Below are positions 1 to 16,636 of a stretch of 64,000 nt of DNA, piece after piece. The first letter of the stretch is position 1. Each line of letters opens with the position of its first letter. The notes below the pieces were generated by a model. That model had not been told where the DNA came from. It ran no database searches and worked only from the letters and a program-made list of their open reading frames with translations. This DNA comes from an uncultured bacterium (GTDB lineage Bacteria > Omnitrophota > Omnitrophia > Omnitrophales > Aquincolibacteriaceae): NCBI GenBank assembly GCA_964410905.1, contig CAYPIR010000005.1, positions 33,938-97,937 on the forward strand, in the 5' to 3' direction. The translations under genes were made by a program, and so were the position numbers.

Positions 1-260
1 AAGATTATACGCGGATGCTTTTACTTTGTTATCAATACGGACTTGAGGGGCTGTGGAAAGAATGTCTGAAATTTTAACATTATCTTCGCTTGTAGGAAGA
101 GATGGATTGGAAGACCAGTTGCTTGCATCATCCCACTTTCCCAAGTCGCCACTATTCCAAGTTATTTCCGTGGCAAATGAAACCGATGAGAAAATGCTGA
201 ATAAGAAAATGAGAGAAGTGAGAAGTGTTATACCGCGGAAGAAAAACGAACGCTAATTAT

Positions 261-291
<31 letters not shown>

Positions 292-412
292 TGTTTGCAT
301 ATTCTGCTCCTTTTTTTTGTTTTTGAAGTCGTTTGTTGCTATTCCTACTTAATACTTTGCGGCAAAGTAAACAATTTCTTAATTTTGTCCAGCGTTTTTC
401 AAAAAATCACAA

Positions 413-619
413 CTACTGTTCAAGGACTTCTCGGCATAAAGCAGGCGTAAGCCGGGAAAGCCTTTTATGTATCCGAAAGATCACAAAGCCAATGTGTCGA
501 AGAACAAGTTCTTGGGCATGGGCTTTATCGCCACGCTCGGCCTCTCGGATTAGTCGCCGTTTTTCTTGAAAAGAAATTCTGGGGTATTTACGAATAATAT
601 CTCGATACGTTTTCCACAT
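413..619 (-). pseudogene. N-terminal fragment resembling sigma-70 family region 2 (ECF/FliA-like); ends after 68 aa with two stops. No downstream continuation could be reconstructed in the frames examined (sigma frame and one alternative).
   Basis: Translation ...ISFQEKRRLIREAERGDKAHAQELVLRHIGFVIFRIHKRL... resembles the start of sigma region 2.1/2.2. TAG then TGA follow in frame, and the downstream frames checked gave no region-4-like sequence. Confidence 0.3.
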
Positions 620-642
620 ACCGAGGCATTTTCAGTCAAAAA

Positions 643-1008
643 CTATTGGCCGTCGACTACTTCAACGGATTTTTCGATACATTCGAGGCAGCTTTTCTTC
701 TTCAAAGATTTGATCTCACGGCACTTTAGAGAGCCAGCAAAAGACCGAAGCAACTCCATCTTTTCTTCAGCAACTTGAGAAAAATGACGATCGAGGATGC
801 GCTTTGTGGCATAAAAAGCACCGCAATATCCTTCCGGTGCTTTTCCTCCTCCGCAAGATGAGAGCAACTCCATAGTTTCCTCATCAAACGGAAATTTTTC
901 TCGAAAAGTTTCGGCTATAGATTGAGCGCAATTAAGCCTGCGGGGGCCCTTCTTCCCGAGATAATAGGCCTTCGCTAACTCTTTCATTTCTTCGATACTC
1001 CGGAGCAA
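643..1008 (-). CDS. C_GCAxxG_C_C family redox protein
   Basis: Motifs LNCAQSIAETF, SSCGGG and YCGAF match the C_GCAxxG_C_C family pattern. The start overlaps the upstream ORF by 25 nt (translational coupling). Confidence 0.7.
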   Translation of the reverse strand: MLRSIEEMKELAKAYYLGKKGPRRLNCAQSIAETFREKFPFDEETMELLSSCGGGKAPEGYCGAFYATKRILDRHFSQVAEEKMELLRSFAGSLKCREIKSLKKKSCLECIEKSVEVVDGQ

Positions 1009-1199
1009 CAGCCTTCAGAAACTCCTAGCTTCTTTAGAATTTTTTCTGCCAAGCACCAGTCCGTAAACGAAGACTGGATCTGGTTCATGCCGACAAATGC
1101 AGTCCAAAGAAGCCACCATTTGCTTACACACACCGCCAGAATGACGCTGAGCAAAGTAAAACTTCCGGCGATTACGCGAATCCATTTTTCCATATTCAT
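984..1199 (-). CDS. Small inner-membrane protein, DUF2892 (YgaP C-terminal domain)-like
   Basis: 71 aa with two predicted TM segments. The ...FTDWCLAEKILKKLGV tail resembles the DUF2892 CP-x-Y-x-LG motif region. It sits 12 nt downstream of the RND gene. Confidence 0.45.
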   Translation of the reverse strand: MNMEKWIRVIAGSFTLLSVILAVCVSKWWLLWTAFVGMNQIQSSFTDWCLAEKILKKLGVSEGCCSGVSKK

Positions 1200-1211
1200 G
1201 ACAATTTTCCT

Positions 1212-4200
1212 TTATGATTTTTTTGCCATCATGTAATAAAAGACGGGAACGGCACTGCGCGAAAGAATGGTCGAAGCAATTTCTCCGGCCATTAAAGCAA
1301 CAGCCAAGCCCTGAAAGATCGGATCGAACAGGATCACGGCTGCTCCGACCACAACCGCCGCCGCAGTCAAAAGCATCGGTCTGAACCGTTGCGCGCCCGC
1401 CTCAATGACCGCTTCTTCAAGCGGCATGCCATCGGCACGTTTCAATTCGATGAAATCCACCAGAATAATGGAATTGCGAACCACAATCCCGGCTCCCGCG
1501 ATCATGCCGATCATGGAAGTCGCAGAAAAGAATACGCCTCCGAGCCAGTGCGCGGGCAAAATACCGATCAACGTAAGCGGGATCGGAAGCATGATAATCC
1601 ACGGCGTTTTAAACGATTGGAACCATCCCACCACGAGAACATAGATAAGAAGAAGTACAAACGCAAATGCCATTCCCAGATCACGGAATACTTCAAAGGT
1701 AATTTGCCACTCCCCGTCCCACTTGAGAGTCCAACGGTCCATCGTTTGAGGCTGGCCGTTGAACAGTTGATCAAGCGTCTTCTGATCTTCGTGATTTTCC
1801 GGTATCGGCATCTTCGCAATATCCTTTTTGAGCTTCAGGATTGCATAAACCGGGCTCTCAAATTTACCCTCCACATCCGCAATTACATAAGAGACTCGCA
1901 TAAGATTCTTATGGTAGATCGCACGATCTTTGAACCCATCCTGAATATCCACAAGGTCTTTAATGGGGATAGGATTTCCATAGCGGGAAAGAAGTGTCAT
2001 ATTAAGCACAGCATCCAGCGTCTTCCGTTTCCCCTCAGGCAACCTCACAAGGATCTCGACCGGCTCATATTCACCGGAGAGATGAGCAAGATCCACGGCT
2101 TTTCCTCCGATTGCGGTCGTAATGGCCTCCGCGATATGGGTCACTGGAATGCCGTTCAGAGAAGCCTTTTGAGTGTTCACTTTCAGACTCGCCAGCTTTT
2201 CCTTAGCCTGAACATAGGTATCGATGTCCGTAATATCGTGATCTTCTGAAAGCATTTTTTCGATTTGAGCGGCAAGCCTATTTTGTCCTTCCGTACTCGG
2301 ACCATAGATTTCAAGCACCAAAGTTGAAAGCACCGGAGGCCCCGGCGGGACCTCGGCTATCTGTATGCGACCACCGTATTTCCCAACGATTTCGTGAATT
2401 TTCGGTCGAACGGCCTTGGCAATGTCATGACTCTGTCGTTTCCGCTGGTGTTTCCCCGCGAGATTCACCTGGAGATCTGCTTGATAAGGTTTCGATCGCA
2501 GAAAATAATGGCGCACAAGACCGTTAAAATTGTAGGGAGCTGCGGTTCCAACATACATTTCGATATCCTTAACCTCAGGAACTGTCGCTAAATAATCCGC
2601 AATCTCCGCGATGACTTGCTGAGTTTTGGCCTTGGGAGTTCCTTCAGGCATATTGAGAACCACCTGGAATTCATTTTTATTATCAAACGGGAGCATTTTC
2701 ATACGGACAAGCTTGAGCGGCACCAGCATCACCACCGTAAATAACAAGATCCCAAGTGCCCACAGAAATTTTTTACGAATCTTCGGATTATGAATCAAAG
2801 GATTCATATATGACCGATAAAGACGCGTCAGAAAGTCTTCTCTTTCTCCTTCATGATGGACCTTGAGTTTGCCCTGGGTAAATGCCTGTCCTAGAATTTG
2901 ATAGGCTGCCCACGGCGTCGCCACAAACGCCACAAACATCGAAAACATCATCGCCGCGCTGGCACCAACCGGAATCGGCCGCATGTAAGGTCCCATGAGA
3001 CCGCGAACAAAAGCCATAGGCAAAATCGCCGCAATTACCGTAAGCGTCGCAAGGATCAAGGGACTTCGGACTTCGTTCACGGCCTCGATCGTAACATCTA
3101 AGATGTTCTTGCCCTTGTTTTCCGGCAAGCGAAGGTGTCGGACAATGTTCTCCACATCCACGATTGGGTCATCGACCAAAATACCGATTGAAAAGATCAA
3201 AGCGAAAAGCGTGATACGGTTTAATGTGAATCCCAGAAAATAAAAAGTCGCGAGAGTAAGCGCTAGAGTCATCGGAATAGCGATCGCTACAACGCCCGCT
3301 TCCCGACTCCCGAGCGACCAGGCAATCAAGAGACTGACGCCGAATACCGCGATTCCCATATGAAACAGAAGCTCATCGGATTTTTCTTTGGCCGTTTCAC
3401 CGTAGTCGCGTGTCACGGTCATTTGAACATCTCTGGGAAGCACGGCTTCGGGTATTTTCTTGATCGTATTGAGGATTACATCTGACAGATGGGCCGCGTT
3501 TGCGCCCTTGCGCTTGGAAATGGCCAGAGTTACCGCTTCGAAAGGCCCCTTCTTTTGAGCCTTCGCAGCTGGCCCAAAAAGGATTTGCGTCGAGCGTTCT
3601 TCCTGATCAGGACCATCCAAAATCTGCGCGATGTCTTTAAGCATCACGATATTGCCGGCATTCACTCCAACCACAAGATTTTCCAAGTCAGACTTTGTTT
3701 TAAAAAAAGAGTCCGCTTCTACCGATTTCAATGCCGGTTCGTTTTCTAAATGTCCGGCACCTTGTTTCACATTTGCTGCGCGTATCAATTGTCCGATCTC
3801 TAGAGGATTTAAAAGCCGTTCTTTTAATTTCTCTTCGTCAAAAAAGACCTGGAATTGCCGTTTGCGACCTCCGGTGATAAGAGTTTCCGAAACCTCAGGA
3901 ATCGCATTCACGATGTTTTGAAGATTTGCCACCGTCTTGCGTAACGCCACGGGGTCCTGTTTCTCACTGTGGAATGTGAGCGTAAGAATAGGAACATCAT
4001 CAATCGAACGAACTTTTAGAAGCGGTTGCGTCGCGCCCAGAGGCAGAAAATCCAGATTAGAATAAACCTTGGTGTAAAGTTTGATCAGACTTTTTTCGAC
4101 ATCCTCCCCCACTTTGAACCGGACAATGATCAATGCGCCTTCAGGCTCGATCGTGGAATAGATGTATTCCACGCCCGGAATCTCCCAAAGCTTTCTCTCC

Positions 4201-4424
4201 CCAAGATTCACGATCCTCTGCTCTACTTCTTTGGAATCCGCACCAGGGTAAGATACGAAAATATCGAACATTGGCACCGAGATCTGAGGTTCTTCTTCCC
4301 GAGGAAGATTTATGATCGCAAAAAGGCCGATGATGAACGATGCGGCGATGATAAGGGGCGTGATCTTCGACTTCGCGAAGTAGCTGACGATGCCGCTGAG
4401 CAAGTCAGAATGATGTGTTTTCAT
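1212..4424 (-). CDS. RND efflux permease, heavy-metal-efflux (CzcA/CusA-like) subfamily, 1070 aa
   Basis: N-terminal TM followed by a large periplasmic loop. The conserved TM4 region ...AIAIPMTLALTLATFYFLGFTLNRITLFALIFSIGILVDDPIVDVENIVRHL aligns to CusA/CzcA. It has 12-TM RND size and architecture, and a 4-nt overlap with the upstream TolC gene. Confidence 0.85.
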   Translation of the reverse strand: MKTHHSDLLSGIVSYFAKSKITPLIIAASFIIGLFAIINLPREEEPQISVPMFDIFVSYPGADSKEVEQRIVNLGERKLWEIPGVEYIYSTIEPEGALIIVRFKVGEDVEKSLIKLYTKVYSNLDFLPLGATQPLLKVRSIDDVPILTLTFHSEKQDPVALRKTVANLQNIVNAIPEVSETLITGGRKRQFQVFFDEEKLKERLLNPLEIGQLIRAANVKQGAGHLENEPALKSVEADSFFKTKSDLENLVVGVNAGNIVMLKDIAQILDGPDQEERSTQILFGPAAKAQKKGPFEAVTLAISKRKGANAAHLSDVILNTIKKIPEAVLPRDVQMTVTRDYGETAKEKSDELLFHMGIAVFGVSLLIAWSLGSREAGVVAIAIPMTLALTLATFYFLGFTLNRITLFALIFSIGILVDDPIVDVENIVRHLRLPENKGKNILDVTIEAVNEVRSPLILATLTVIAAILPMAFVRGLMGPYMRPIPVGASAAMMFSMFVAFVATPWAAYQILGQAFTQGKLKVHHEGEREDFLTRLYRSYMNPLIHNPKIRKKFLWALGILLFTVVMLVPLKLVRMKMLPFDNKNEFQVVLNMPEGTPKAKTQQVIAEIADYLATVPEVKDIEMYVGTAAPYNFNGLVRHYFLRSKPYQADLQVNLAGKHQRKRQSHDIAKAVRPKIHEIVGKYGGRIQIAEVPPGPPVLSTLVLEIYGPSTEGQNRLAAQIEKMLSEDHDITDIDTYVQAKEKLASLKVNTQKASLNGIPVTHIAEAITTAIGGKAVDLAHLSGEYEPVEILVRLPEGKRKTLDAVLNMTLLSRYGNPIPIKDLVDIQDGFKDRAIYHKNLMRVSYVIADVEGKFESPVYAILKLKKDIAKMPIPENHEDQKTLDQLFNGQPQTMDRWTLKWDGEWQITFEVFRDLGMAFAFVLLLIYVLVVGWFQSFKTPWIIMLPIPLTLIGILPAHWLGGVFFSATSMIGMIAGAGIVVRNSIILVDFIELKRADGMPLEEAVIEAGAQRFRPMLLTAAAVVVGAAVILFDPIFQGLAVALMAGEIASTILSRSAVPVFYYMMAKKS

Positions 4425-5881
4425 GATGCCCTACCTTTCAAGCGGGTATTCACCAAATGAATTCCTTTTTCATCTAACTGTCCCGAAAGAAAAAGTAACT
4501 TGGCGTACTCCACTTCCAAGCCGAAAAGCACCTGTTCAAATTCCGTTGTCGTGATAAGGTTTGCTCGGCGTATCTCGAGAAGATCCGCGATGGATTTGCG
4601 TCCTTCTTGATAAAGTTTAGCGGTCAGGTCACTCGCCTGCTCGGCATCCTTAGAAGCCTGCTTCAATACCGGAAGATCCATGATAACGGTTTCAAACCGC
4701 GTCAATTCATCGGCAAGGTTTTTGGCAATCTCATCACGAAGCACCTGACGATCCGCCTTCAATTCTTCATAACGATGTTTGGCATTCTTGATACGACCCG
4801 GAAGGGTTGGCTCAAAAAGGTCAATGGTTCCTTTGAATCCCACCGTATAGTCCCAACCGCTCGTGTGCCAATCAGGGCTATGCTCATTAAAACTTCCGAA
4901 ACCATAAAATTTCGGAAGAAAGGAAGTCTTCTGCCGAAGGCTCTCAATACGCTGGGCGTCTATTATTTGATCCATGGCCGCAAGATCTTTACGCTCCTGA
5001 TAGGCCTTTGCGATCCAAGCGCGAAGCTCGCCTTTGTCCTGTACATATTCTGGCAATTTTCCAACCGGCTCCCACGTCAATTCCAGATCTTCGCCCATGA
5101 GAATATTCATGAACATTCTGGAGTTTTTCAACATGGCTTGGGCTTTGTTTCTCTCGCGTTCAATTCCGGCAGCAGTAACCTTCGCAGCGTAAAAATCCGC
5201 TCCAAGAATCAGACCCTTTTGATTTAAATCTTCGGCTTGTTTTAGATCTTTGTCGCTTTGATCTTTCATCGTCGCAGTGATAGCGAGAACTTCTTTTGCA
5301 AGCAGAATTCTGAGATAACTCTCAAGGGTCACGATCCCGGCTTCCATCTCGGTAAAGTCCGCTTCAAGGTTCGCAGACTTCACAAGTCGGCGAGCAGAAC
5401 GGATCTTGGAGATCGTATTGAAGGAGTCAAAAAGCAGCATCTCCCCTTCCAATCCGAAGTGATAGTCTGTGCGATGGTTGGGATTGTTAAGCTCGTTAAC
5501 TGCGAAATTAGCTTGTGTGAATTTGTTCTGCTGGAGGAGCATGCCGAAGACGCCTACGGGATCATTCGTCGTCGTCATCGAACTCACGCCCTGAACGTGG
5601 GGAAAAAGATCGGCGATAGCGATATTACGACCGGCCTTCGCTTGTTCAAGTTGCTCGTATCTTTTCTTTAAAGCGGGGTAATGCGCTAAAACTTTTTGGT
5701 AACAATCAAGAAATGTCAGATTATCCAGATGAGCGGGAGCTTGGAGTGCGATTTCTTCAGCAAACACAAACTGCCCCGCCAAAAATACGAACGCAAAGAA
5801 AACCGATAGTGTTTTTTTTATAGACATTGAAATCATCTTAGGTTGTTCTCCCTGGCTTGAAAACAGGTTTTTAGACCTCAC
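4421..5881 (-). CDS. TolC-family outer membrane efflux protein (OEP)
   Basis: 486 aa with a signal peptide, two OEP repeats rich in coiled-coil helices, and a TolC-like size. It overlaps arsM upstream and the RND gene downstream by 4 nt each. Confidence 0.8.
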   Translation of the reverse strand: MRSKNLFSSQGEQPKMISMSIKKTLSVFFAFVFLAGQFVFAEEIALQAPAHLDNLTFLDCYQKVLAHYPALKKRYEQLEQAKAGRNIAIADLFPHVQGVSSMTTTNDPVGVFGMLLQQNKFTQANFAVNELNNPNHRTDYHFGLEGEMLLFDSFNTISKIRSARRLVKSANLEADFTEMEAGIVTLESYLRILLAKEVLAITATMKDQSDKDLKQAEDLNQKGLILGADFYAAKVTAAGIERERNKAQAMLKNSRMFMNILMGEDLELTWEPVGKLPEYVQDKGELRAWIAKAYQERKDLAAMDQIIDAQRIESLRQKTSFLPKFYGFGSFNEHSPDWHTSGWDYTVGFKGTIDLFEPTLPGRIKNAKHRYEELKADRQVLRDEIAKNLADELTRFETVIMDLPVLKQASKDAEQASDLTAKLYQEGRKSIADLLEIRRANLITTTEFEQVLFGLEVEYAKLLFLSGQLDEKGIHLVNTRLKGRAS

Positions 5882-6717
5882 CGAACAATTCTTTTTTCCG
5901 CGCTTACTTTGATGCTGGCAATGGAATGTTCGATCTTTTTCAAATCCTCTTGGTTTACAATAGGACTATTTTTAATAACCTTGGCTGTTGCATCGTTGGA
6001 CATCGCTTTAATCGGATAAAACGTCTCATTTACTATTTTGATCGTACTGAAACCAGCATCCTTGATCAAATGCAGATAATCCTTCTTGAAAATTGCGCCG
6101 GCGAGACAGCCTACATAAGCTTCTATAGATCGCTTAATAGTTTGGGGTAATTCTCTTATCAGAACCAAATCGGATACCATCAATTGTCCCCCCGCCTTCA
6201 ACACCCTGAACGCTTCTTCAAATACGCTTTTCTTATCTGGCGAAAGATTGATAACACAATTTGAAATAATCATATCTATCGAACTGTTTTCAATAGGAAG
6301 GTTTTCGATTTCGCCTAAACGAAACTCCACATTGGAATATCCTCCTTTTTTGGCGTTTGCTTTGGCTCTTTCGATCATCTCTGCTGTCATATCAACGCCG
6401 ATAACACGTCCTGTCTTTCCGACTTTTTTCGCCGCAAGAAAAACATCGAATCCCGCGCCACTCCCCAAATCCAACACCACGTCGCCTTCCTTTAACGATG
6501 CCAAGGCAACAGGATTACCGCAACCAAGCCCCAGGTTAGAACCTTCTGGAACAGCATCTATTTCATCCGCACTGTAACCCACGCTCTTGCTTATATCTTG
6601 AACAAGGTTTTTGCTACCGCAACACGAACTCGTAGGACAACAAGAACTACCGTTTTGAGCAATTTTGGCATAACCTTCTCGAACAATTTTTTTAATCTCT
6701 TTTTGTCCTCTTGCCAT
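5878..6717 (-). CDS. arsM: Arsenite S-adenosylmethionine methyltransferase
   Basis: Strong match along the whole protein to ArsM: IVREGYAKIA..SSCC, LGCGNPVALASL, the SAM motif VLDLGSGAGFDV, ISNCVINLSPDK, EAFRVLKAGGQLMVSDLV and YVGCLAGA. The As(III)-binding cysteines are conserved. Confidence 0.85.
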   Translation of the reverse strand: MARGQKEIKKIVREGYAKIAQNGSSCCPTSSCCGSKNLVQDISKSVGYSADEIDAVPEGSNLGLGCGNPVALASLKEGDVVLDLGSGAGFDVFLAAKKVGKTGRVIGVDMTAEMIERAKANAKKGGYSNVEFRLGEIENLPIENSSIDMIISNCVINLSPDKKSVFEEAFRVLKAGGQLMVSDLVLIRELPQTIKRSIEAYVGCLAGAIFKKDYLHLIKDAGFSTIKIVNETFYPIKAMSNDATAKVIKNSPIVNQEDLKKIEHSIASIKVSAEKRIVR

Positions 6718-6720
6718 AAA

Positions 6721-7026
6721 TTATTTCGTCTTTCTGTTCACAACTTTACAACATCCGCCCTCGATCTTGATGCCATGCTGATTGACGAGCGCGTTAGCAA
6801 TCTTTTGTCGAGCCGAAATGAGTATCCGCGAAATGGTAGCTCGGTGAACTTTCATTTGTTTCGCAGCATCCAACTGTTCCAGACGCATCCCGTCACAAAG
6901 ACGCAAAGCCTCTAGTTCATCCAAGGTGATCCTAGTAACTATGATGTCGTTACGCGGCACATGAAGAGGGCGGAAGCATCTGTCCCCCGGCTTACAACTA
7001 ACCCACCTTGTTTTCTTAGGTCTCAT
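6721..7026 (-). CDS. DUF134 (UPF0251) family putative DNA-binding protein; candidate regulator of the downstream operon
   Basis: MRPKKTRWVSC...LDELEALRLCDGMRLEQLDAAKQMKVHRATISRILISARQKIANALV fits the DUF134 pattern RPKK-R-...DE-EA-RL-D...EAA..M.VSR.T..R...AR.K.A.ALV. Five Cys are present, including a C-terminal vicinal CC. An AGGAGG-like RBS (tcctcc on +) lies at 7030-7035. Its stop is 1 nt from the arsM ATG. Confidence 0.8.
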   Translation of the reverse strand: MRPKKTRWVSCKPGDRCFRPLHVPRNDIIVTRITLDELEALRLCDGMRLEQLDAAKQMKVHRATISRILISARQKIANALVNQHGIKIEGGCCKVVNRKTK

Positions 7027-7054
7027 TCCGTCCTCCAGTTATGCACATATGCTT

Positions 7055-7082
7055 ATAATATCACGCTTTGATTCTTTGTCAA
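7055..7082 (-). promoter_or_regulatory. Candidate sigma70 promoter for the DUF134-arsM-tolC-RND operon
   Basis: The minus strand reads TTGACA (7082-7077), a 16-nt spacer, then TATTAT (7060-7055), about 25 nt upstream of the RBS. Identified by eye only. Confidence 0.35.
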
Positions 7083-7297
7083 ATTCATTTTCTCTTTTAG
7101 GTCGATCTCGTCGCCGCCTTCTTTCCAGCTTTCTTGACAGAAGCACTCAACTGGAAGGCAATCAATCCTACGGGCTCACCTTCGCAAGTACAGCTGTAAG
7201 ACCCGCAAACAGCGCTGAAGTTAGCGCACAGATCTGCCGGCGACTCCTGATGATCGATATTTGAATAAAAACGAGAGGGATCAGATGGGCTGAAAAG

Positions 7298-7330
7298 TAA
7301 AACTCCCCCAGTGTCCTTGGGGGATTTTAT
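7298..7330 (-). terminator. Rho-independent terminator downstream of tRNA-Lys; the hairpin is flanked by A and T tracts on both sides
   Basis: Stem TCCCCCA (7304-7310), loop gtgtcct, stem TGGGGGA (7318-7324). A T-run follows on the minus strand (gttttactttt) and also on the plus strand (ttttat). Confidence 0.5.
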
Positions 7331-7359
7331 CTCTGTCCGATAGAGAGTGACAAGAGAAG

Positions 7360-7432
7360 TGAGCCCGGATGGATTCGAACCATCGACAACCGCCTTAAAA
7401 GGGCGATGCTCTACCAGCTGAGCTACGGGCCC
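7360..7432 (-). tRNA. tRNA-Lys (anticodon UUU), no encoded CCA
   Basis: The minus-strand sequence GGGCCCGTAGCTCAGCTGGTAGAGCATCGCCCTTTTAAGGCGGTTGTCGATGGTTCGAATCCATCCGGGCTCA folds as a cloverleaf. It has a 7-bp acceptor stem with one G-U pair, a D-arm GCTC/GAGC, anticodon loop CTTTTAA and a T-arm GATGG-TTCGAAT-CCATC. The annotated ORF 7097..7480 overlaps it and is spurious. Confidence 0.9.
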
Positions 7433-7518
7433 AACTATTAAAGAGACAATAATTACTGCGTAATTAAAACAAAAATCCACTTTCGCGACAACAAAATCGT
7501 GGAAGACTAATATGTTTT

Positions 7519-8091
7519 TTAAATCGCGTAAACTTCTTTTTCTTTATTTGCCAACGCTTCATCAACTGCCGCTATTGATTGGTCGGTCAATTTTTGAATT
7601 TCTTTTTGTGAAACATGCGAAGCATCTTCAGTCGCAATTTTTTCTTTTTCAAGTTTCTTAATTTGCTCTATCGCTTCATGGCGCGTACTGCGTATCGCAA
7701 TGCGGCCTTCTTCAGCAACCTTGCGAACAACTTTCGTCAATTCCGCTCTGCGTTCATCAGTAAGCGATGGAATTTGAATGCGAAGAATTTTCCCATCATT
7801 GATTGGCGTAAGTCCGAGATCCGATTTTAGAATTGCTTTTTCAACTTCAGCAACGGCAGAAGCGTCCCACGGTTGAATCTGAATAGTCCTAGCATCCGGC
7901 GTTGAAATTGTCCCAAGATTTTTAATGGGGGTCGGAGTATTATAATAGTTTACTGAAATCCCTTCCACGAGGGCTATGGACGCGCGGCCCGTGCGGATAT
8001 TTTGAAATTCCTTTTTTGTAGCATCAACGCTTTTGGTCATTTTCTTTTTTGCTTCATCCGCCAACTGTTTCAAATCCGTAACATTATTCAT
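7519..8091 (-). CDS. frr: Ribosome recycling factor
   Basis: 190 aa with full-length similarity to RRF. Located in the conserved rpsB-tsf-pyrH-frr cluster. Confidence 0.95.
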   Translation of the reverse strand: MNNVTDLKQLADEAKKKMTKSVDATKKEFQNIRTGRASIALVEGISVNYYNTPTPIKNLGTISTPDARTIQIQPWDASAVAEVEKAILKSDLGLTPINDGKILRIQIPSLTDERRAELTKVVRKVAEEGRIAIRSTRHEAIEQIKKLEKEKIATEDASHVSQKEIQKLTDQSIAAVDEALANKEKEVYAI

Positions 8092-8117
8092 AGGATTCTC
8101 CTTTGAAGTTGAACCTT

Positions 8118-8837
8118 TTAAGAAACGACAGTTCCAATTTTTTCGCCTAATACCGCGCGGCGAATATTACCGGGCTTTGTCAAATCAAATACCACAATCG
8201 GAAGATTATTTTCCATACAAAGAGATGTGGCTGTTGTGTCCATAACGCGAAGTTGATTTTTAATCACATCAAGATATTTCAATCGCGCAAACTTTACAGC
8301 GTCTTTATGTTTCACGGGATCTTTATCGTAAACGCCGTCTACTTTTGTAGCCTTCAAAATAACCTCGGCATTCATCTCGACTCCGCGAAGCACCGCCGCC
8401 GTATCTGTCGTAAAAAACGGATTTCCTGTTCCTGCAGCAAAAATCACTACACGGCCTTTTTGAAGATGACGCATTGCTCTGCGGCGAATATAAGGTTCGC
8501 ATAAAGCCTTAATTTCTAGCGCCGATTGAACCCTTGTATGCACACCGACTTTTTCAAGCGCGTCAGACATCACAAGCCCGTTCATTACCGTCGCAAGCAT
8601 TCCGATATAGTCGGCAGTCGCGCGGTCAATGCCGTTTTTTTCACCTTCAGCACCTCTGAAAAAATTTCCGCCGCCAATAATGCAAATCACATCAACGCCA
8701 AGCGTCCTAACTTCTTTTATCTGCTTTGCGATTGAATTAACAATTTCAGGATCAATTCCAAAACCGCGTTTCCCTTCCAGCGCTTCACCGGAAAGTTTCA
8801 AAACGATACGCTTATAAACAGGTTTTTTTACTTTCAT
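8118..8837 (-). CDS. pyrH: UMP kinase
   Basis: Motifs [12 protein letters not shown]...GGGNFFRG...TTDTAA are typical of PyrH. Confidence 0.95.
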
Positions 8838-8874
8838 TAGGAGTTTCAGCCTTTTTGTAATTTAACCAAATATT

Positions 8875-9471
8875 TTAGTTGCCACCGACTTCAAAGCGCA
8901 CGAAACGGCGGACAATAATGTTTTCACCAATCTTCGCAATCGCCTCAGTTACGAGGTCTTTAATCGTCTTAGAGTCATCTTTTATAAATTTTTGATTCAT
9001 AAGACAAATTTCCTCATAGCGTTTACTCAGTTTTCCTTCTAAGATTTTTTTTCTGACTTCTTCGGGCTTATCTTTGACTTGATCCAAAAAAACCGCGCTC
9101 TCACGCTCTAATTCCGCGACAGGAATATCTTCCGCGCGGACATAAAGCGGATGCGCCGCCGCGATTTGCATGGACAAATCACGAATAAACGCTTGAAAAG
9201 TTTCGTTTTTAGCAACAAAATCCGTCTCGCAATTCACTTCTAAAAGAACTCCCAGCTTCCCGCCGGAGTGAATATAAGATGTAATTTGTCCTTCACGCGC
9301 TTCACGAGAAGATTTTTTCTTCGCGATATCCAGCCCTTTTTTACGAATAATATCTTGCGCCTTTTGAATGTCTCCCGATGTTTCGACAAGCGCGTTTTTA
9401 CAATCCATCATTCCCGCGCCCGTAAGTTCACGAAGCTTTGTAATATCCGTACTGCTAAATGGTGTTATCAT
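8875..9471 (-). CDS. tsf: Elongation factor Ts (short form)
   Basis: The N-terminal motif ITKLRELTGAGMMDCKNAL is the EF-Ts UBA-like domain. 198 aa. Confidence 0.9.
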   Translation of the reverse strand: MITPFSSTDITKLRELTGAGMMDCKNALVETSGDIQKAQDIIRKKGLDIAKKKSSREAREGQITSYIHSGGKLGVLLEVNCETDFVAKNETFQAFIRDLSMQIAAAHPLYVRAEDIPVAELERESAVFLDQVKDKPEEVRKKILEGKLSKRYEEICLMNQKFIKDDSKTIKDLVTEAIAKIGENIIVRRFVRFEVGGN

Positions 9472-9518
9472 TTTTATTTCCTTTTATATTGTTTTAAATG
9501 AATGAGTGATTTTTGTTC

Positions 9519-10430
9519 TTAAGCGTTGTCTTTTTTCTTAACCGGTTTTTTTGTTTTTACTTTAACTTCCTCGTCAGCGCCTGCCACCGCAAGAATCTTT
9601 GGATCAACTTTCTTCTCAATCACTTCTTCTTCCAAAACAACCTCATCGTCAGAAACCTCTTCAGCGTCCGCAACCGCTGCCGTCGCTTCGGCTTCCTCTT
9701 TTTTATTCGTAGCAATCTTTTTATATTCCTTGCGTCCTTCGGCAACAACCTCGGAAATAACGGAAGCAAAAAGTTTAATCGCCTTAATCGCGTCATCATT
9801 TCCGGGAAGAGGAAAATCGATAATATCAGGATTGGCATTGGTATCCAGAAGCGCTACGACAGGGATACCAAGTTTACGGGCTTCGGCAACCGCAATATTT
9901 TCAAGTTCCGCGTCAATGACAAACACCGCGCCGGGAAGACGTTTCATTTCGCGAATGCCAGAAAGATTCTTTATAAGTTTTTCGCGTTCCTTTTTTAACG
10001 AACCGATTTCTTTTTTGGTAATAAATTGAAAACTGCCGTCTTTTTCCATTTCATCAATAGAATCCAACTTCTTAACGGATTTACGAATGGTTTCAAAATT
10101 GGTGAGCATTCCGCCAAGCCAACGCTGATTAACATAAGGCATTTCGCACGCTTCAGCAGATTCTTTTATTACAAGCTGTGCTTGTTTCTTTGTCCCAACG
10201 AATAAAACTTCCTTGCCTTCGATTGCAATTTGCTTGATAAACTCCAATGCTTTTTCTAAAGCGGCAAGCGTTAATTCAAGATTAATAATATAAATACCGT
10301 TGCGTTCGCCGAAAATATATTTTTTCATTTTCGGATTCCAACGCTGAGTTTGATGACCAAAGTGAACGCCGGCTTCGAGTAACTGTTTAATGGTAACCTG
10401 AGACAAGATTAAATCCTTTCGTGGTAACAC
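9519..10430 (-). CDS. rpsB: 30S ribosomal protein S2 with a ~60-aa acidic/lysine-rich C-terminal extension
   Basis: Begins LSQVTIKQLLEAGVHFGHQTQRWNPKMKKYIFGERNGIYIINL. The tail ...EEVSDDEVVLEEEVIEKKVDP...KKPVKKKDNA lies beyond the conserved S2 core. Confidence 0.95.
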   Translation of the reverse strand: MLPRKDLILSQVTIKQLLEAGVHFGHQTQRWNPKMKKYIFGERNGIYIINLELTLAALEKALEFIKQIAIEGKEVLFVGTKKQAQLVIKESAEACEMPYVNQRWLGGMLTNFETIRKSVKKLDSIDEMEKDGSFQFITKKEIGSLKKEREKLIKNLSGIREMKRLPGAVFVIDAELENIAVAEARKLGIPVVALLDTNANPDIIDFPLPGNDDAIKAIKLFASVISEVVAEGRKEYKKIATNKKEEAEATAAVADAEEVSDDEVVLEEEVIEKKVDPKILAVAGADEEVKVKTKKPVKKKDNA

Positions 10431-10676
10431 AAGAATAAGCGACTAATGTCCAAATGAGCACCGGGAAATTCCGGAGGGTTCAGTATCGTGTCCCTCCCTT
10501 TCCCTTTCGCTCGGAGGGTTCGCCTATCTTCCAACTACTGCAGAACTAATACTGCGGAGAAGCTCTAATGAGGCTCTTTAAAAAGTTGGCGCGACATTAT
10601 ATCTAAAAACTTTGTTGAAACAAGTTTTTTAATGTTTTTTATGCGCTGATAATCGACTCGCCATTATTGTAAAAGT

Positions 10677-10906
10677 CAATAATTTCGTAGACAGACATGA
10701 GTCACAAAGATCGTGGTCATATGCAGCCGGTCGTGAAGCCCTCGCAACCACTGTCGAAGTTCTTTGCGAACCTTAGAATCGAGAGATCCGAAAGGTTCGT
10801 CCAACAACAAAACTTTAGGTTCAATCGCAAGGGCTCGAGCCAAAGCCACGCGCTGTCGTTGGCCACCTGAAAGCTGAGACGGGTACCGCGGCGCGAGACC
10901 ATCCAG
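10677..10906 (-). pseudogene. cysA: Remnant of sulfate/thiosulfate ABC transporter ATP-binding protein CysA: only ~75 codons of the signature/Walker-B region survive
   Basis: The frame reads [74 protein letters not shown] and then VCLRNY*. The Walker A/Q-loop N-terminal ~130 aa and the C-terminal ~150 aa (D-loop, H-loop, TOBE domain) are absent. The upstream end is fused out of frame to the cysW 3' end. Confidence 0.7.
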
Positions 10907-11810
10907 ATGACTTCCTTTTTAGCGCGCCACTCGATCCATTGCTTAAGGACAAGAGTTACAAACGCCAGAAGCATCAGTATCGAGGCAACGGCGAACGCAG
11001 CCGTAAAATTGTATTCGTTATAAAGAATCTCAACATGAAGCGGGATCGTATTCGTTAACCCCCGGATATGCCCCGATACTACCGATACGGCTCCAAACTC
11101 CCCCATCGCTCGAGCATTGCAGAGGATCACACCATAGAGAAGTCCCCATTTGATATTAGGAAGCGTCACTCGCCAAAACGTCTTCCACCCACTCGCACCA
11201 AGCGTCACTGCCGCATACTCTTCCTCATTCCCCTGAGACTGCATGAGTGGAATGAGCTCACGAGCGACAAAAGGAAACGTCACGAAAAGTGTTACTAGAA
11301 TGATCCCTGGTACTGAAAAAATAATTTTGATGTTATGCTCCCCTAGCCAATGTCCCAAGGTGCCCTGCGCACCAAAGAGCAGTACGAATATCAGACCTGA
11401 GATCACGGGCGAAACAGAAAAAGGAAGATCGATTAACGTAATTAAGAATTTCTTCCCCCAAAAATCAAATTTTGTAATCGCCAAGAAGCCGCTAGCCCGA
11501 ATAAGAGATTCAGCGGAACACTTGCGATGGCCACGATCAGCGTCAATCGAATCGCCGAAAGAGCGACCGGATTGGAAAGCGAATGAAGATAAAAGGCAAA
11601 GCCTTTTTTCAGCGCTTGCGTAAGCACCATGGCGATCGGCAGCACAAGAAAGAAGGCAAGAAAAACAAGCGCGGCCGTGATAAGTAAAACACGGATCCAT
11701 CGAGGTTCCGATAAAAATGGGCGCTCGACTACTTTGCCGTCGTCTTCTAATTTTTTACTTACAATGCCAGCCATATTTTCCTCTAAAGGCTTTCGCTTTG
11801 CCGACCCCAA
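10907..11810 (-). pseudogene. cysW: Sulfate ABC transporter permease CysW, disrupted by a -1 frameshift near 11481 and loss of its stop codon (3' deletion into cysA)
   Basis: The N-terminal ORF (11442..11810) reads ...LLFGLAASW, then a wrong frame. CysW continues in another frame (within ORF 10717..11700) as [26 protein letters not shown]...[14 protein letters not shown]...[12 protein letters not shown]. The junction falls in a GG run at + 11481-11482. Confidence 0.7.
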
Positions 11811-14273: not shown

Positions 14274-14313
14274 TCCTTTTTAAAATTTATGTCTAACAAT
14301 TTAAATATAACTA

Positions 14314-14334
14314 ACTTGATTATATTTGTCAAGT
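14314..14334. promoter_or_regulatory. Inverted repeat ACTTGA-N9-TCAAGT in the divergent promoter region between rrf2 and the PLP enzyme gene; candidate operator
   Basis: Read directly: acttgattatatttgtcaagt. The surrounding 160-bp intergenic region is very AT-rich. Confidence 0.3.
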
Positions 14335-14433
14335 GTTAATTCCTATGTTAGAATACTTTTATTGTATATTCGACAAGGAGCACAGTAGCATGCCCCGCTT
14401 ACTCAACTCTCAAAATCAGTCAGAAAGGCTTTT

Positions 14434-15570: not shown

Positions 15571-15582
15571 TGTTAAACCAAT

Positions 15583-15617: not shown

Positions 15618-15637
15618 ATTTCTTCTACGATTTTGTT

Positions 15638-16573: not shown

Positions 16574-16636
16574 GCTTTCTTCTCCTTTATCTTGGTGCTT
16601 CTTCAAAGCCGTGACGGCAAGGATTTATTTATGACA

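What the first reader, a model, noticed from the sequence alone, without database searches (positions are those of the whole stretch)
643..7082. Translationally coupled DUF134-arsM-tolC-HME-RND-DUF2892-C_GCAxxG operon: candidate novel arsenic/metalloid methylation-efflux system
Six minus-strand genes run from 7026 down to 643 with 1-4 nt gaps or overlaps (DUF134 stop to arsM ATG 1 nt; arsM/tolC and tolC/RND overlap by 4 nt; the last two ORFs overlap by 25 nt). A single promoter-like element and RBS lie upstream at 7030-7082. ArsM operons normally carry ArsR and an ArsP/ArsB/Acr3 exporter. Here the regulator slot is filled by a Cys-rich DUF134 DNA-binding protein (5 Cys including a vicinal CC, a plausible As(III)/thiol-reactive sensor). 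The export slot is filled by a tripartite-type TolC plus a CusA/CzcA-like RND pump. Coupling a methyltransferase that makes toxic MAs(III) with an outer-membrane-spanning efflux system plus two small redox/membrane proteins is not a described ars architecture. It suggests export of methylated arsenicals, or a combined metal/metalloid detox module.
Basis: partly seen in the sequence, partly recalled or inferred. Interest (0 to 1): 0.75.

Follow-up and report, generated by a model that had tools for sequence, protein, structure and literature searches.

The report
Arsenic operon with unusual regulator, pump
An uncultured Omnitrophota bacterium carries an arsenic-detoxification operon that appears to be switched by an uncharacterised DUF134 protein instead of the usual ArsR repressor, and it pairs an arsenic methyltransferase with an outer-membrane channel and RND pump that has no adaptor protein.

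Summary
The six minus-strand genes and the promoter are real. Three details need correction.
- The RND pump is not CusA/CzcA-like. It belongs to a separate, widespread subfamily closest to AcrB/MexB.
- There is no adaptor (MFP) gene.
- Two of the reported gene junctions differ.

arsM is not a chance neighbour. Every relative with a pump at least 83% identical and readable upstream DNA carries bona fide arsenic genes in the arsM position (Acr3, or ArsE/F/G plus Acr3), behind the same DUF134 gene. DUF134-ArsM-Acr3(-ArsC) operons without any pump also occur in other Omnitrophota.

All of these operons share a 20-bp palindrome, TTATG..CATATG..CATAA, fused to the -10 box. It occurs once in the 64-kb window, at 7039-7058. 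DUF134 operons with no arsenic genes have the same promoter layout, so DUF134 is the likely autorepressor. The arsenic-linked DUF134 subgroup alone has C17 and a C-terminal Cys pair, which could form an As(III) site.

The DUF2892 partner is a hallmark of the whole pump subfamily and is fused to the pump in one lineage.

I found no description of these features in the papers I could search. I rate this a new variant of the ars operon. Nothing has been tested experimentally, and the pump's substrate is inferred only.

The parts
7077..7082 (-). -35 hexamer TTGACA
   Evidence: Consensus scan, 11 of 12 matches; best site in 1-8200. Sequence read.
7055..7063 (-). Extended -10 element, TGa-TATTAT
   Evidence: The same TATTAT, fused to the palindrome, is seen in relatives' promoters.
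7039..7058 (.). Operator-like 20-bp palindrome. It reads TTATAAGCATATGTGCATAA on the minus strand, overlaps the -10 box and the expected transcription start, and is the putative DUF134 binding site.
   Evidence: It is the only match in 64 kb to TTATGNNCATATGNNCATAA, with 1 mismatch. About 0.2 matches are expected by chance, and 18 of 100 shuffles gave at least one. In the 179 fetched loci the same motif occurs only at DUF134 promoters. DUF134 operons without ars genes have a sister motif in the same position.
7031..7036 (-). Ribosome-binding site GGAGGA for DUF134
   Evidence: Sequence read.
6721..7026 (-). DUF134/UPF0251 protein, 101 aa. Putative arsenic-responsive autorepressor with Cys 11, 17, 44, 92, 93.
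   Evidence: PF02001 at 69 bits. The AlphaFold core (residues 30-89) has pLDDT above 90 and is a sigma-70 region 4 / DeoR-type helix-turn-helix. C11, C17, C92 and C93 are conserved in the ars-linked subgroup only. It heads ars operons in at least 9 loci.
5878..6717 (-). ArsM, As(III) S-adenosylmethionine methyltransferase, 279 aa
   Evidence: NF008823 at 362 bits against a cut-off of 263. The best solved relative is Chlamydomonas ArsM 5evj (E 2e-37). The GCGNP, NCVINL and CLAGA cysteines align exactly, and the N-terminal cysteine falls within one residue of the query's Cys pair. A 100% identical protein exists in NCBI (P0241).
4421..5836 (-). TolC-family outer-membrane factor, 471 aa from ATG 5836. 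The ORF is open from GTG 5881.
   Evidence: PF02321 at 133 bits with two repeats. Signal peptide MISMSIKKTLSVFFAFVFLAGQFVFA. RBS GGGAG at 5852-5848. The stop overlaps the RND start as ATGA.
1212..4424 (-). RND permease, 1070 aa, from a distinct subfamily with motifs PREEEPQI and FDNKNEF. It is neither HME-type nor a curated HAE-1 member.
   Evidence: PF00873 at 473 bits, with every specific NCBIfam model far below its cut-off. Best PDB matches are MexB/AcrB/TriC-type at about 196 bits. The proton relay is present: D418/D419, R983 and R1015 align to MexB D407/D408, K940 and R971. The protein has no Cys. A scan of one genome per species was capped at 600 stretches, of which 592 encode relatives.
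984..1199 (-). DUF2892 / YgaP-like two-helix membrane protein, 71 aa, with the conserved WC motif and a C-terminal GCC tail. Putative accessory subunit of the pump.
   Evidence: PF11127 at 40 bits. A homologue is present in 106 of 180 sequences examined (179 fetched loci plus the window), usually directly after the RND gene. It is fused to the RND C-terminus in P0099. The close clade carries the C-terminal Cys pair.
643..987 (-). C_GCAxxG_C_C putative thiol-redox protein, 114 aa from ATG 987
   Evidence: PF09719 at 38 bits against a cut-off of 27. It is 63% identical to a 114-aa protein in a different DUF134 operon of a relative (L171 4997-5341). No homologue was detected in the loci clustered or seed-searched; the only one seen is the L171 protein.
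601..625 (-). Weak terminator-like hairpin after the last gene
   Evidence: 10-bp stem with a poor T-tract. Low confidence.
7304..7324 (.). Upstream boundary: a bidirectional GC-rich terminator hairpin after tRNA-Lys (7359-7432)

Best explanation
This is an arsenic-resistance (ars) operon of an Omnitrophota bacterium, built on a lineage-specific plan.

1. One sigma-70-type promoter drives all six genes. A 20-bp palindrome that overlaps the -10 box and the transcription start is the operator.
2. The first gene product is a small DUF134/UPF0251 helix-turn-helix protein. It most likely binds the palindrome as a dimer and represses its own operon, taking the place of ArsR. The gene layout and the motif are shown here. 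Binding is inferred.
3. Release is probably triggered when As(III) or MAs(III) is bound by three of the subgroup-specific cysteines (C11, C17, C92/C93). This step is inferred.
4. ArsM then methylates As(III). Family membership and the catalytic cysteines are shown. Activity is inferred.
5. The TolC-like channel, the RND permease and the small DUF2892 membrane protein remove arsenicals from the inner membrane or periplasm across the outer membrane. In this window those would be the hydrophobic, highly toxic MAs(III)/DMAs(III) made by ArsM. In sister operons they would be As(III) or organoarsenicals delivered to the periplasm by Acr3 or by the PF03773 permease and ArsG. This step is inferred from recurrent co-location only.
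6. DUF2892 probably acts as a pump-bound accessory subunit whose Cys tail handles the thiophilic substrate. This is inferred from family-wide adjacency and one gene fusion.
7. C_GCAxxG is a lineage-specific thiol-redox add-on.
For: **Gene identities:**

**Conserved context**
- For relatives whose pump is 83-93% identical and whose upstream DNA is available, every operon reads DUF134-[ars cargo]-OEP-RND-DUF2892:
  - L097 and L001: permease-ArsE-ArsF-ArsG-Acr3-peroxiredoxin as cargo.
  - L091, L171/172 and L173/174: Acr3 as cargo.
- The same DUF134 subgroup also heads DUF134-ArsM-Acr3(-ArsC) and DUF134-Acr3-DUF2892 operons that have no pump.

**Operator**
- The palindrome TTATG-NNC-ATAT-GNN-CATAA abuts the -10 box in nine distinct promoters. 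Its inner bases change symmetrically: GCAC/GTGC, GAGT/ACTC, GAGC/GCTC, GAAC/GTTC.
- It occurs once in the window.
- DUF134 operons with entirely different cargo (NifX-like, beta-lactamase-fold) have the same layout with TTATTGACATATGTCAATAA. DUF134 is the only gene the two operon types share.

**DUF134 protein**
- The fold is a sigma-70 region 4 / DeoR-type helix-turn-helix.
- C11 and C17 are 98-99% conserved, and C92 and C93 88% each, in the ars-type subgroup. Generic DUF134 proteins have Y17 and no Cys pair. Only about 6 of 4473 family cluster representatives belong to this tight top-scoring ars-type group (at least 120 bits).

**Pump**
- The proton-relay residues are intact.
- An RND::DUF2892 fusion exists.
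- DUF2892 is present in 106 of 180 sequences examined.
Against: - No experiment and no expression data support any step.
- The pump has no cysteine, and no arsenic-specific feature was found in it.
- At 45-57% identity its subfamily sits next to varied ArsR/SmtB-type regulators, ECF sigma factors, OsmC, thioredoxin and, once, cytochrome bd. Its ancestral substrate therefore need not be arsenic.
- No adaptor gene was found, yet known RND-TolC pumps need one to work.
- The window operon has no Acr3, ArsB or ArsP.
- The window's own palindrome has one degenerate half-site.
- Two operon-head DUF134 proteins lack C92, and three subgroup representatives lack C17. The exact sensing site is therefore unclear.
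- The DUF134 termini that carry the cysteines are modelled with low confidence.
Confidence: 0.55

Rival explanations
1. It is a genuine ars operon, but the OEP-RND-DUF2892 block is a general efflux module for thiol-reactive, oxidative-stress or xenobiotic compounds. On this reading it became co-transcribed with ars genes in this lineage and does not itself transport arsenic species.
For: - The pump subfamily is very widespread: 592 of a capped 600 matched stretches in a one-genome-per-species scan encode relatives.
- Outside the close clade it is not associated with true ars genes. Its neighbours there are varied ArsR/SmtB regulators, ECF sigma/anti-sigma pairs, OsmC, thioredoxin, peroxiredoxins, cytochrome bd, and generic SAM methyltransferases that are not ArsM.
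- The pump has no Cys and looks HAE-1-like.
- A DUF2892 gene was reported to be induced about 10-fold by H2S in Azospira (PMC5358917).
Against: - In all six operons of the 83-100% identity clade with readable upstream DNA (five relatives plus the window), the block lies inside the DUF134/palindrome-controlled ars unit with short intergenic gaps.
- DUF2892 stays next to Acr3 even where the pump is absent.
- The DUF2892 of this clade carries a C-terminal vicinal Cys tail that the ArsR-linked Kiritimatiellia-type versions lack.
Confidence: 0.3
2. DUF134 is not the regulator. On this reading the palindrome is a site for another factor or an RNA/DNA hairpin, and DUF134 has some other small role, such as handling Fe-S clusters or zinc.
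For: - In relatives the palindrome would fold as an RNA hairpin of -7 to -10 kcal/mol, with compensatory changes.
- Foldseek matches for DUF134 have poor E-values (0.2-1) because the domain is short.
- Many generic DUF134 proteins neighbour NifX-like Fe-S/cofactor proteins and carry Cys-rich C-terminal extensions.
Against: - The palindrome overlaps the -10 hexamer, so much of its left arm lies upstream of the expected transcription start and would not be in the RNA.
- In the window the hairpin is negligible (-1.5 kcal/mol, z = +0.6), yet 19 of 20 pattern positions are kept.
- The outer TTAT/ATAA and central CATATG bases are conserved in sequence, as expected for a protein-binding site.
- DUF134 is the only gene shared by the two operon types that have this promoter layout.
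- Pfam and NCBIfam also give weak sigma-70 region 4 / HTH matches.
Confidence: 0.1
3. This is a heavy-metal (Cu/Ag/Zn/Cd) CusA/CzcA-type efflux operon, and arsM sits beside it by chance.
For: The RND protein gives a sub-threshold match to the CusA/CzcA model TIGR00914 (209 bits). Vicinal Cys tails also occur in some mercury and metal-handling proteins (from general knowledge).
Against: - TIGR00914 is far below its cut-off of 701, and the multidrug-type models score higher.
- The TM4 motif is the HAE-type VDD, aligned to MexB D407/D408.
- No CusB, CusF or CzcB gene is present.
- The arsM slot is filled by other arsenic genes in every close relative, and DUF134-ArsM pairs recur without the pump.
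Confidence: 0.03

Closest known systems
Canonical ars operons (arsR-arsM, arsR-acr3-arsC, arsRBC), controlled by ArsR/SmtB repressors
   Same: A single autoregulated unit. The first gene is a small DNA-binding protein with candidate As(III)-binding cysteines, followed by detoxification genes. These are ArsM here, and Acr3, ArsC and ArsE/F/G in sister operons. An operator palindrome overlaps the promoter.
   Different: The regulator is DUF134/UPF0251, with a sigma-70 region 4-like HTH, not a winged-helix ArsR. The window operon has no Acr3, ArsB or ArsP. An outer-membrane factor, an RND permease and DUF2892 are part of the operon.
CusCFBA / CzcCBA heavy-metal RND systems, which act together with inner-membrane exporters
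   Same: The concept of a two-step route across the envelope: an inner-membrane exporter (Acr3 in sister operons) feeds a periplasm-to-outside RND/outer-membrane channel, together with a small accessory protein.
   Different: The permease is not HME-type (TIGR00914 at 209 against 701; TM4 motif VDD). There is no adaptor (CusB/CzcB) and no CusF-like periplasmic chaperone. The presumed substrate is a metalloid or organoarsenical.
AcrAB-TolC / MexAB-OprM with the small inner-membrane partner AcrZ
   Same: These are the closest solved relatives of the permease (about 196 bits), with the same proton-relay positions. A small membrane protein encoded with or fused to the pump (DUF2892) recalls AcrZ as an accessory subunit.
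   Different: All curated HAE-1 models are far below cut-off. There is no AcrA/MexA-type adaptor gene. DUF2892 is a two-helix YgaP-type hairpin unrelated to AcrZ. The regulatory and genomic context is arsenic, not drugs.
As(III)-sensing ArsR variants with vicinal cysteine pairs (AfArsR Cys95/96/102, CgArsR Cys15/16/55; recalled from the literature, not tested here)
   Same: A three-thiolate site that includes a Cys-Cys pair in a flexible terminus, placed independently of the DNA-binding fold. The ars-type DUF134 has C11, C17 and a C-terminal GGCC.
   Different: A different protein fold and family, so any As(III) site would be a separate evolutionary invention. No binding has been shown.
ArsP and ArsEFG organoarsenical resistance modules
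   Same: The sister operons L001 and L097 carry a PF03773 permease (the ArsP Pfam family) plus ArsE/ArsF/ArsG-family genes, above NCBIfam cut-offs, behind the same DUF134. Export of trivalent organoarsenicals is the role proposed here for the pump.
   Different: The window has none of these genes. The RND/OEP block occupies the exporter position.

Membership tests
ars (arsenic resistance) operon | Encodes an arsenic-specific enzyme: ArsM with its conserved catalytic cysteines | tested here: met
   NF008823 at 362 bits against a cut-off of 263. In the alignment to Chlamydomonas ArsM 5evj, the cysteines of GCGNP, NCVINL and CLAGA align exactly. The N-terminal cysteine falls within one residue of the query's Cys pair.
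ars (arsenic resistance) operon | ArsR/SmtB-family repressor as the first or adjacent gene | tested here: not met
   No ArsR-like ORF in the operon or in the 64-kb window by phmmer seed search. The regulator slot holds DUF134.
ars (arsenic resistance) operon | Dedicated inner-membrane arsenical exporter (Acr3, ArsB, ArsP, ArsK or ArsJ) | tested here: not met
   Seed searches for Acr3 and the PF03773 (ArsP-family) permease found none in the window. ArsB, ArsK and ArsJ were not searched for. Acr3 is present in the sister operons (TIGR00832 at 454-463 bits against a cut-off of 283).
ars (arsenic resistance) operon | Induction by arsenite, and conferral of arsenic tolerance | not testable with these tools
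   Needs RT-qPCR or reporter assays and resistance assays.
HME-RND (CusA/CzcA heavy-metal efflux permeases) | Scores above the curated family model and has an HME-type TM4 motif | tested here: not met
   TIGR00914 at 209 bits against a cut-off of 701, lower than the generic multidrug RND models at 392 and 341 bits. TM4 reads ILVDDPIVDVEN and aligns to the HAE-1 motif LLVDDAIVVVEN.
HAE-1 multidrug RND permeases (AcrB/MexB) | Scores above the curated subfamily models | tested here: not met
   NF033617 at 392 and NF000282 at 341 bits, both against cut-offs of 1250. TIGR00915 at 287 against 940. The solved structures are only distant matches at about 196 bits.
RND superfamily proton-driven permease | ACR_tran fold across the full length, with TM4 Asp pair and TM10/TM11 basic residues | tested here: met
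   PF00873 at 473 bits over residues 15-1066. D418/D419, R983 and R1015 align to MexB D407/D408, K940 and R971, and are invariant in 8 homologues.
Tripartite RND efflux system (permease + adaptor + outer-membrane factor) | Outer-membrane factor of the TolC family encoded with the permease | tested here: met
   PF02321 at 133 bits with two repeats, plus a signal peptide. Its stop overlaps the RND start.
Tripartite RND efflux system (permease + adaptor + outer-membrane factor) | Periplasmic adaptor (membrane-fusion protein, HlyD/RND_mfp) encoded with the permease | tested here: not met
   An HMM built from 110 adaptors of the same pump subfamily found none in the window or in 460 kb of close-clade loci. 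Its single weak hit is a biotin/lipoyl carrier. Members at 45-57% identity do have an adaptor (TIGR01730 at 219 bits). The rest of the source genome could not be searched.
DUF134 / UPF0251 (PF02001) | Matches the Pfam model above the gathering score | tested here: met
   69 bits against 27, over residues 2-92. A profile search found 4473 family cluster representatives.
YgaP-like TM / DUF2892 (PF11127) | Matches the Pfam model; two-helix hairpin with the conserved W-C motif | tested here: met
   40 bits against 25.3. The motif FT.WC is conserved across the 107 homologues found in 106 sequences.
C_GCAxxG_C_C (PF09719 / TIGR01909) | Matches the family model and has the C...GxCGAxxG...C...CxxC cysteines | tested here: inconclusive
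   Pfam at 38 bits against 27 is met. TIGR01909 at 27.4 bits is below its cut-off of 47.4. The cysteines of NCAQ, GYCGAF, KCRE and CLEC are visible in the sequence.

The most novel reading that the evidence does not exclude
Two claims together.

1. The ars-type DUF134 proteins are a previously unrecognised family of arsenic-sensing transcriptional repressors. They would have a sigma-70 region 4-like HTH and an S3 site drawn from C11, C17, C92 and C93. They would bind a defined 20-bp operator (TTATG-NNC-ATAT-GNN-CATAA) and replace ArsR across Omnitrophota.
2. The OEP-RND-DUF2892 block they control is a dedicated exporter of trivalent (methyl)arsenicals across the cell envelope. It would work without a classical membrane-fusion adaptor, with DUF2892 as a thiol-bearing accessory subunit.
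Probability: 0.25. Interest if true: 0.8.

Novelty: new variant of a known kind. Interest (0 to 1): 0.62.

Why it matters
- **A possible new arsenic sensor.** Arsenic regulation in bacteria is attributed almost entirely to ArsR/SmtB repressors. A second, unrelated sensor family with a known operator would give DUF134/UPF0251 its first functional handle. That family has about 4500 sequence clusters and no described function in the papers I could search. It would also offer a new biosensor scaffold.
- **A possible new export route.** RND/TolC pumps are not part of the recognised ars gene set. If this pump exports As(III) or the very toxic MAs(III)/DMAs(III) made by ArsM, it adds an outer-membrane step to arsenic detoxification. 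It could also serve to release methylarsenite as a toxin, in anaerobic, possibly host-dependent nanobacteria.
- **An exception to the adaptor rule.** The missing adaptor gene in a whole clade of RND-TolC pairs, and the family-wide DUF2892 partner, touch on what is usually taken as the rule that RND-TolC pumps need a membrane-fusion protein.
- **Testable claims.** Each point can be tested with gel shifts, reporter assays and heterologous resistance assays.

Tried and rejected
- **HME/CusA-CzcA assignment:** rejected on NCBIfam scores, PDB matches and the TM4 motif.
- **ArsM-like genes as a general partner of the pump:** methyltransferases near distant pump homologues looked like a recurrent ArsM link. 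They score only 30-47 bits against the window ArsM and fall below every ArsM cut-off, so they are generic SAM methyltransferases.
- **Hidden adaptor:**
  - Searched with one seed and then with a 110-sequence HMM. The only hit is a biotin/lipoyl carrier at 59011-59283.
  - Looked for insertions in the RND or OEP that might compensate for a missing adaptor. None is longer than 4 residues.
- **Cysteine or metal-binding clues in the pump:** there are no Cys at all.
- **As(III) motifs in the ArsR-type regulators beside distant homologues:** these regulators are heterogeneous. One of them (L042) has the classical ELCVC motif, and L145 has only ELCVL. This says nothing about the family's substrate.
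- **Riboswitch or other RNA element in the leader:** Rfam finds only the tRNA. The palindrome as an RNA hairpin is rejected for the window at -1.5 kcal/mol.
- **Solved structure for DUF134 by sequence:** none.
- **Literature searches** on DUF134, UPF0251/COG1342/PF02001, DUF2892 with arsenic, Omnitrophota with arsenic, RND with ars operon or methylarsenite: nothing describes this system.
- **Exact look-up of the window's RND protein** in the contig index: not on record.

Full report
**1. What is in the sequence**

Six minus-strand ORFs fill 7026-643. Pfam and NCBIfam identify them as follows.

| Coordinates | Product | Evidence |
|---|---|---|
| 6721-7026 | DUF134/UPF0251 | PF02001, 69 bits |
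| 5878-6717 | arsenite methyltransferase | NF008823, 362 bits, cut-off 263 |
| 4421-5881 | TolC-family outer-membrane factor | PF02321, 133 bits |
| 1212-4424 | RND permease | PF00873, 473 bits |
| 984-1199 | YgaP-like TM / DUF2892 | PF11127, 40 bits |
| 643-1008 | C_GCAxxG_C_C | PF09719, 38 bits |

- The ArsM aligns to Chlamydomonas ArsM (5evj, E 2e-37). The cysteines of GCGNP, NCVINL and CLAGA align exactly, and the N-terminal one lies within a residue of the query's Cys pair.
- The best promoter-like site in the first 8.2 kb is TTGACA(7082-7077)-16 nt-TGa-TATTAT(7060-7055), followed by GGAGGA and the DUF134 ATG.
- Upstream, a tRNA-Lys (7359-7432) and a GC-rich hairpin (7304-7324) end the previous unit.
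- Promoter-like sites inside the operon are weak (9 of 12 matches), and promoter-like sites overall are no more frequent than in shuffled sequence (8 found, 10.2 expected).

**2.

- The gap from DUF134 to arsM is 3 nt.
- The OEP most likely starts at ATG 5836. GGGAG precedes it, and a typical signal peptide begins there. That gives a 41-nt spacer rather than a 4-nt overlap.
- The OEP/RND ATGA overlap is real.
- The gap from RND to DUF2892 is 12 nt.
- The last gene most likely starts at ATG 987, an ATGA overlap with the DUF2892 stop. A 114-aa homologue that is 63% identical aligns end to end from that Met.
- The permease is not CusA/CzcA-like. TIGR00914 scores 209 bits against a cut-off of 701, below the generic multidrug RND models. 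The nearest solved structures are MexB/AcrB/TriC-type at about 196 bits.
- The TM4 motif ILVDDPIV aligns to the MexB/AcrB DD pair. R983 and R1015 align to K940 and R971.
- No curated RND subfamily model reaches its cut-off.
- There is no membrane-fusion (adaptor) gene.

**3. Organism and pump family**

- Homologues of the permease at 65-93% identity come almost entirely from Candidatus Omnitrophota, with a few from Kiritimatiellia.
- Two conserved peptides, PREEEPQI and FDNKNEF, retrieve relatives widely. A scan of one genome per species was capped at 600 matched stretches, and 592 of them encode a relative. They span Acidobacteriota, Verrucomicrobiota, Desulfobacterota, Nitrospirota and other phyla.
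- I fetched 160 loci from the two collection scans, plus loci from the contig index. I called ORFs and classified neighbours with sequence seeds. Three results stand out.
  - **DUF2892 is a hallmark of the subfamily.** A homologue occurs in 106 of 180 sequences examined. It usually lies directly after the permease, often overlapping its stop codon, and sometimes lies before the OEP. In one lineage it is fused to the permease C-terminus (P0099, 1149 aa).
  - **Adaptor presence splits by identity.** Members at 45-57% identity are almost all OEP-adaptor-RND. The adaptor was verified as TIGR01730 at 219 bits. In the clade at 65% identity or more, including the window, the OEP abuts the permease.
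  - **ArsR/SmtB-type regulators recur** upstream of distant members (23 distinct sequences), but their cysteine patterns are heterogeneous.

**4. Is arsM a chance neighbour? No.**

For relatives at 83-93% pump identity with readable upstream DNA, the position held by arsM in the window always carries recognised arsenic genes, behind a DUF134 gene.

| Locus | Pump identity | Operon |
|---|---|---|
| L097 | 93% | DUF134 - PF03773 permease - ArsE - ArsF - ArsG - Acr3 - peroxiredoxin - OEP - RND - DUF2892 |
| L001 | 85% | Same as L097 |
| L091 | 84% | (contig end) Acr3 - OEP - RND - DUF2892 |
| L171/172 | 83% | DUF134 - Acr3 - OEP - RND - DUF2892 |
| L173/174 | about 84% | DUF134 - Acr3 - OEP - RND - DUF2892 |

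- Sources for the table.
- The NCBIfam scores are above cut-off: ArsE family 109 (cut-off 62), ArsF 115 (60), ArsG 279 (200), Acr3 454-463 (283).
- Starting instead from the window's ArsM, three other Omnitrophota genomes have operons without any pump: DUF134-ArsM-Acr3 in L177 and L178, and DUF134-ArsM-Acr3-ArsC-like in L175.
- Another set of contigs has DUF134-Acr3-DUF2892.
- The lineage therefore has a modular ars operon. DUF134 is the constant first gene, and the OEP-RND-DUF2892 block is an optional but recurrent module.
- Methyltransferases near distant pump homologues are not ArsM. They score 30-47 bits and fall below all ArsM cut-offs.

**5. DUF134 as the regulator**

- Aligning the DNA upstream of nine DUF134 genes that head ars operons shows a 20-bp palindrome abutting or overlapping the -10 hexamer.
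  - L001, L097 and L171: TTATGCACATATGTGCATAA.
  - L173: TTATGCACACATGTGCATAA.
  - L170: TTATGAGTATATACTCATAA.
  - L178: TTATGAGCATATGCTCATAA.
  - L177: TTATGAACATATGTTCATAA.
  - L175: TTATGAACGTATGTTCATAA.
  - Window: TTATAAGCATATGTGCATAA.
- The outer TTATG/CATAA and the central ATAT are fixed. The inner bases change symmetrically.
- In the 179 fetched loci, the exact pattern occurs only at these promoters.
- In the 64-kb window it occurs once, at 7039-7058, with one mismatch. That single count is only weakly significant: 18 of 100 shuffles gave a match. The weight lies in its position and its conservation.
- Two DUF134 operons with unrelated cargo have the same architecture, TTGACA-spacer-TATTAT fused to a palindrome. 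DUF134 is the only gene common to the ars and non-ars operon types, so it is the most economical candidate for the binding protein.
  - One is DUF134-methyltransferase-NifX-like-C_GCAxxG-beta-lactamase-fold in L171, with TTATTGGCATATGCTAATAA.
  - The other is DUF134-NifX-like-beta-lactamase-fold-OEP-RND::DUF2892 in L007, with TTATTGACATATGTCAATAA.
- The palindrome covers the -10 box and the expected start site, the classical position for a repressor.
- An RNA-hairpin reading is unlikely. Much of the left arm lies upstream of the expected start site. In the window the hairpin is worth only -1.5 kcal/mol (z = +0.6), against -7 to -10 kcal/mol in relatives.
- An AlphaFold model has pLDDT 77.8 overall and above 90 for residues 30-89. 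It gives strand-helix-helix-helix-strand and superposes on sigma-70 region 4 and DeoR/SorC DNA-binding domains at 0.5-0.7 Å over 40-48 residues. E-values are poor (0.2-1) because the domain is short.
- No solved homologue exists by sequence.

**6. A possible arsenic-sensing site**

- Among 120 close homologues, C11 and C17 are 98-99% conserved, C92 and C93 88% each, and C44 63%.
- The DUF134 paralogues of the non-ars operons, and the family at large, have Tyr at position 17 and no C-terminal Cys pair.
- A profile search of 1.84 billion representatives finds 4473 family clusters. Only the top six or so (at least 120 bits) form the tight ars-type group.
- Individual members lack either C92 (L097, L171) or C17 (three representatives), so any three of the four thiols may suffice.
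- Three-thiolate sites that include a vicinal pair are how several ArsR variants bind As(III). That is recalled knowledge, so here it is a lead and not a result.
- The cysteine-bearing termini are modelled with low confidence.

**7. The pump**

- The evidence that it handles arsenicals is contextual only. It sits inside the DUF134-controlled ars unit in all six members of the closest clade.
- Its DUF2892 partner there has a C-terminal Cys-Cys tail, which the ArsR-linked Kiritimatiellia-type versions lack.
- DUF2892 remains beside Acr3 where the pump is absent.
- Against this, the permease has no cysteine and looks like a pump for hydrophobic or amphiphilic compounds. Its wider family sits in varied redox and thiol-stress contexts.
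- A working model that fits both sets of facts: the pump clears membrane-soluble or periplasmic trivalent arsenicals across the outer membrane. In the window these would be MAs(III)/DMAs(III) from ArsM. In sister operons they would be species exported by Acr3, the PF03773 permease or ArsG.
- The main rival is a general stress-efflux module co-regulated with ars genes.

**8. The missing adaptor**

- An HMM built from 110 adaptors of this same subfamily finds nothing in the window or in 460 kb of close-clade loci. Its one weak hit is a biotin/lipoyl carrier.
- Neither the permease nor the OEP of the adaptor-less clade has an insertion longer than 4 residues relative to adaptor-containing relatives.
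- Either the adaptor is encoded elsewhere, or this clade works without one. I could not search the rest of the genome.

**9. Literature**

Full-text searches found nothing that describes this arrangement. The search terms were:
- DUF134 (whole word);
- UPF0251, COG1342 and PF02001;
- DUF2892, alone and with arsenic;
- Omnitrophota with arsenic;
- RND with ars operon, TolC or methylarsenite.

The only functional note on DUF2892 is a roughly 10-fold induction by H2S in Azospira (PMC5358917). The library does not hold most subscription-journal papers, so absence there is not proof of novelty.

**10. Verdict**

- The HME and 'tripartite' labels are wrong, and C_GCAxxG is a lineage-specific add-on.
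- I classify it as a new variant of a known kind of system.
- My rough estimates for each claim:
  - about 0.85 that this is an arsenic operon;
  - about 0.7 that DUF134 is its operator-binding regulator;
  - about 0.5 that DUF134 senses As(III) directly;
  - about 0.4 that the pump transports arsenicals.

Noticed in passing
L171 4293-6700 (minus strand); L007 5134-11450: A second kind of DUF134-headed operon carries no arsenic genes. It reads DUF134 - small SAM methyltransferase - NifX-like - C_GCAxxG - beta-lactamase-fold in L171, and DUF134 - NifX-like - beta-lactamase-fold - OEP - RND::DUF2892 in L007. Both have the same promoter plan as the ars type: TTGACA, TATTAT, then a fused 20-bp palindrome (TTATTGGCATATGCTAATAA or TTATTGACATATGTCAATAA). 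This points to a family-wide mode of autoregulation for DUF134.
   Followed up: partly
window 1212-5881; L001-L011, L090-L097, L171-L174; also L086, L098, L099, L110, L137: A whole clade of this RND subfamily has the TolC-like gene directly abutting the permease with no membrane-fusion gene, as do a few scattered members. Most members at 45-57% identity have OEP-MFP-RND. No compensating insertions were found.
   Followed up: partly
L007 8001-11450 (protein P0099, 1149 aa): A natural fusion of the RND permease with the DUF2892/YgaP-like TM domain at its C-terminus, which argues for physical association of the two proteins.
   Followed up: no
L057 13415-14002, L120 6719-7336; also in L060, L074, L113 and L134 (coordinates): In Acidobacteriaceae-type loci, a conserved 194-214-aa SAM methyltransferase follows RND-DUF2892 directly. 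It is not ArsM and is below every NCBIfam cut-off. Its function is unknown.
   Followed up: partly
contigs carrying protein P0130 (no DNA held): A minimal DUF134-Acr3-DUF2892 operon without OEP or RND. DUF2892 therefore travels with the arsenic exporter as well as with the pump.
   Followed up: no
window 10430-11700: Only a 57-aa fragment of an ABC-transporter ATPase (Walker B region, 10676-10849) remains between a permease gene (10717-11700) and rpsB. The permease ORF continues out of frame into it. This looks like a truncated or frameshifted ATPase gene of an ABC importer.
   Followed up: partly
window 7097-10430 versus L001, L171, L173: In relatives the ars operon lies between feoAB and gatCAB. 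In the window it lies next to tRNA-Lys and the frr-pyrH-tsf-rpsB cluster. The module has moved or was acquired separately, and a tRNA-adjacent insertion is possible.
   Followed up: no
window 413-619 (minus strand): A 68-aa ORF lies just downstream of the operon. By eye its sequence (RRLIREAERGDKAHAQELVLRHIGFV) resembles the N-terminal part of a sigma-70-type factor, but it has no Pfam match and ends early. It may be a gene remnant.
   Followed up: partly
window 13839-17062: Two Rrf2-family regulators (13839-14273, 16637-17062) flank a Cys/Met-metabolism PLP enzyme (14434-15570) and a PALP-family (cysteine synthase-like) enzyme (15638-16606). This sulfur-assimilation cluster lies a few kb from the ars operon.
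   Followed up: no
window 5878-6717: A protein 100% identical to this ArsM is already in NCBI and Logan assemblies (P0241, longest contig 119,935 bp). The source genome is therefore public and could be searched whole.
   Followed up: no
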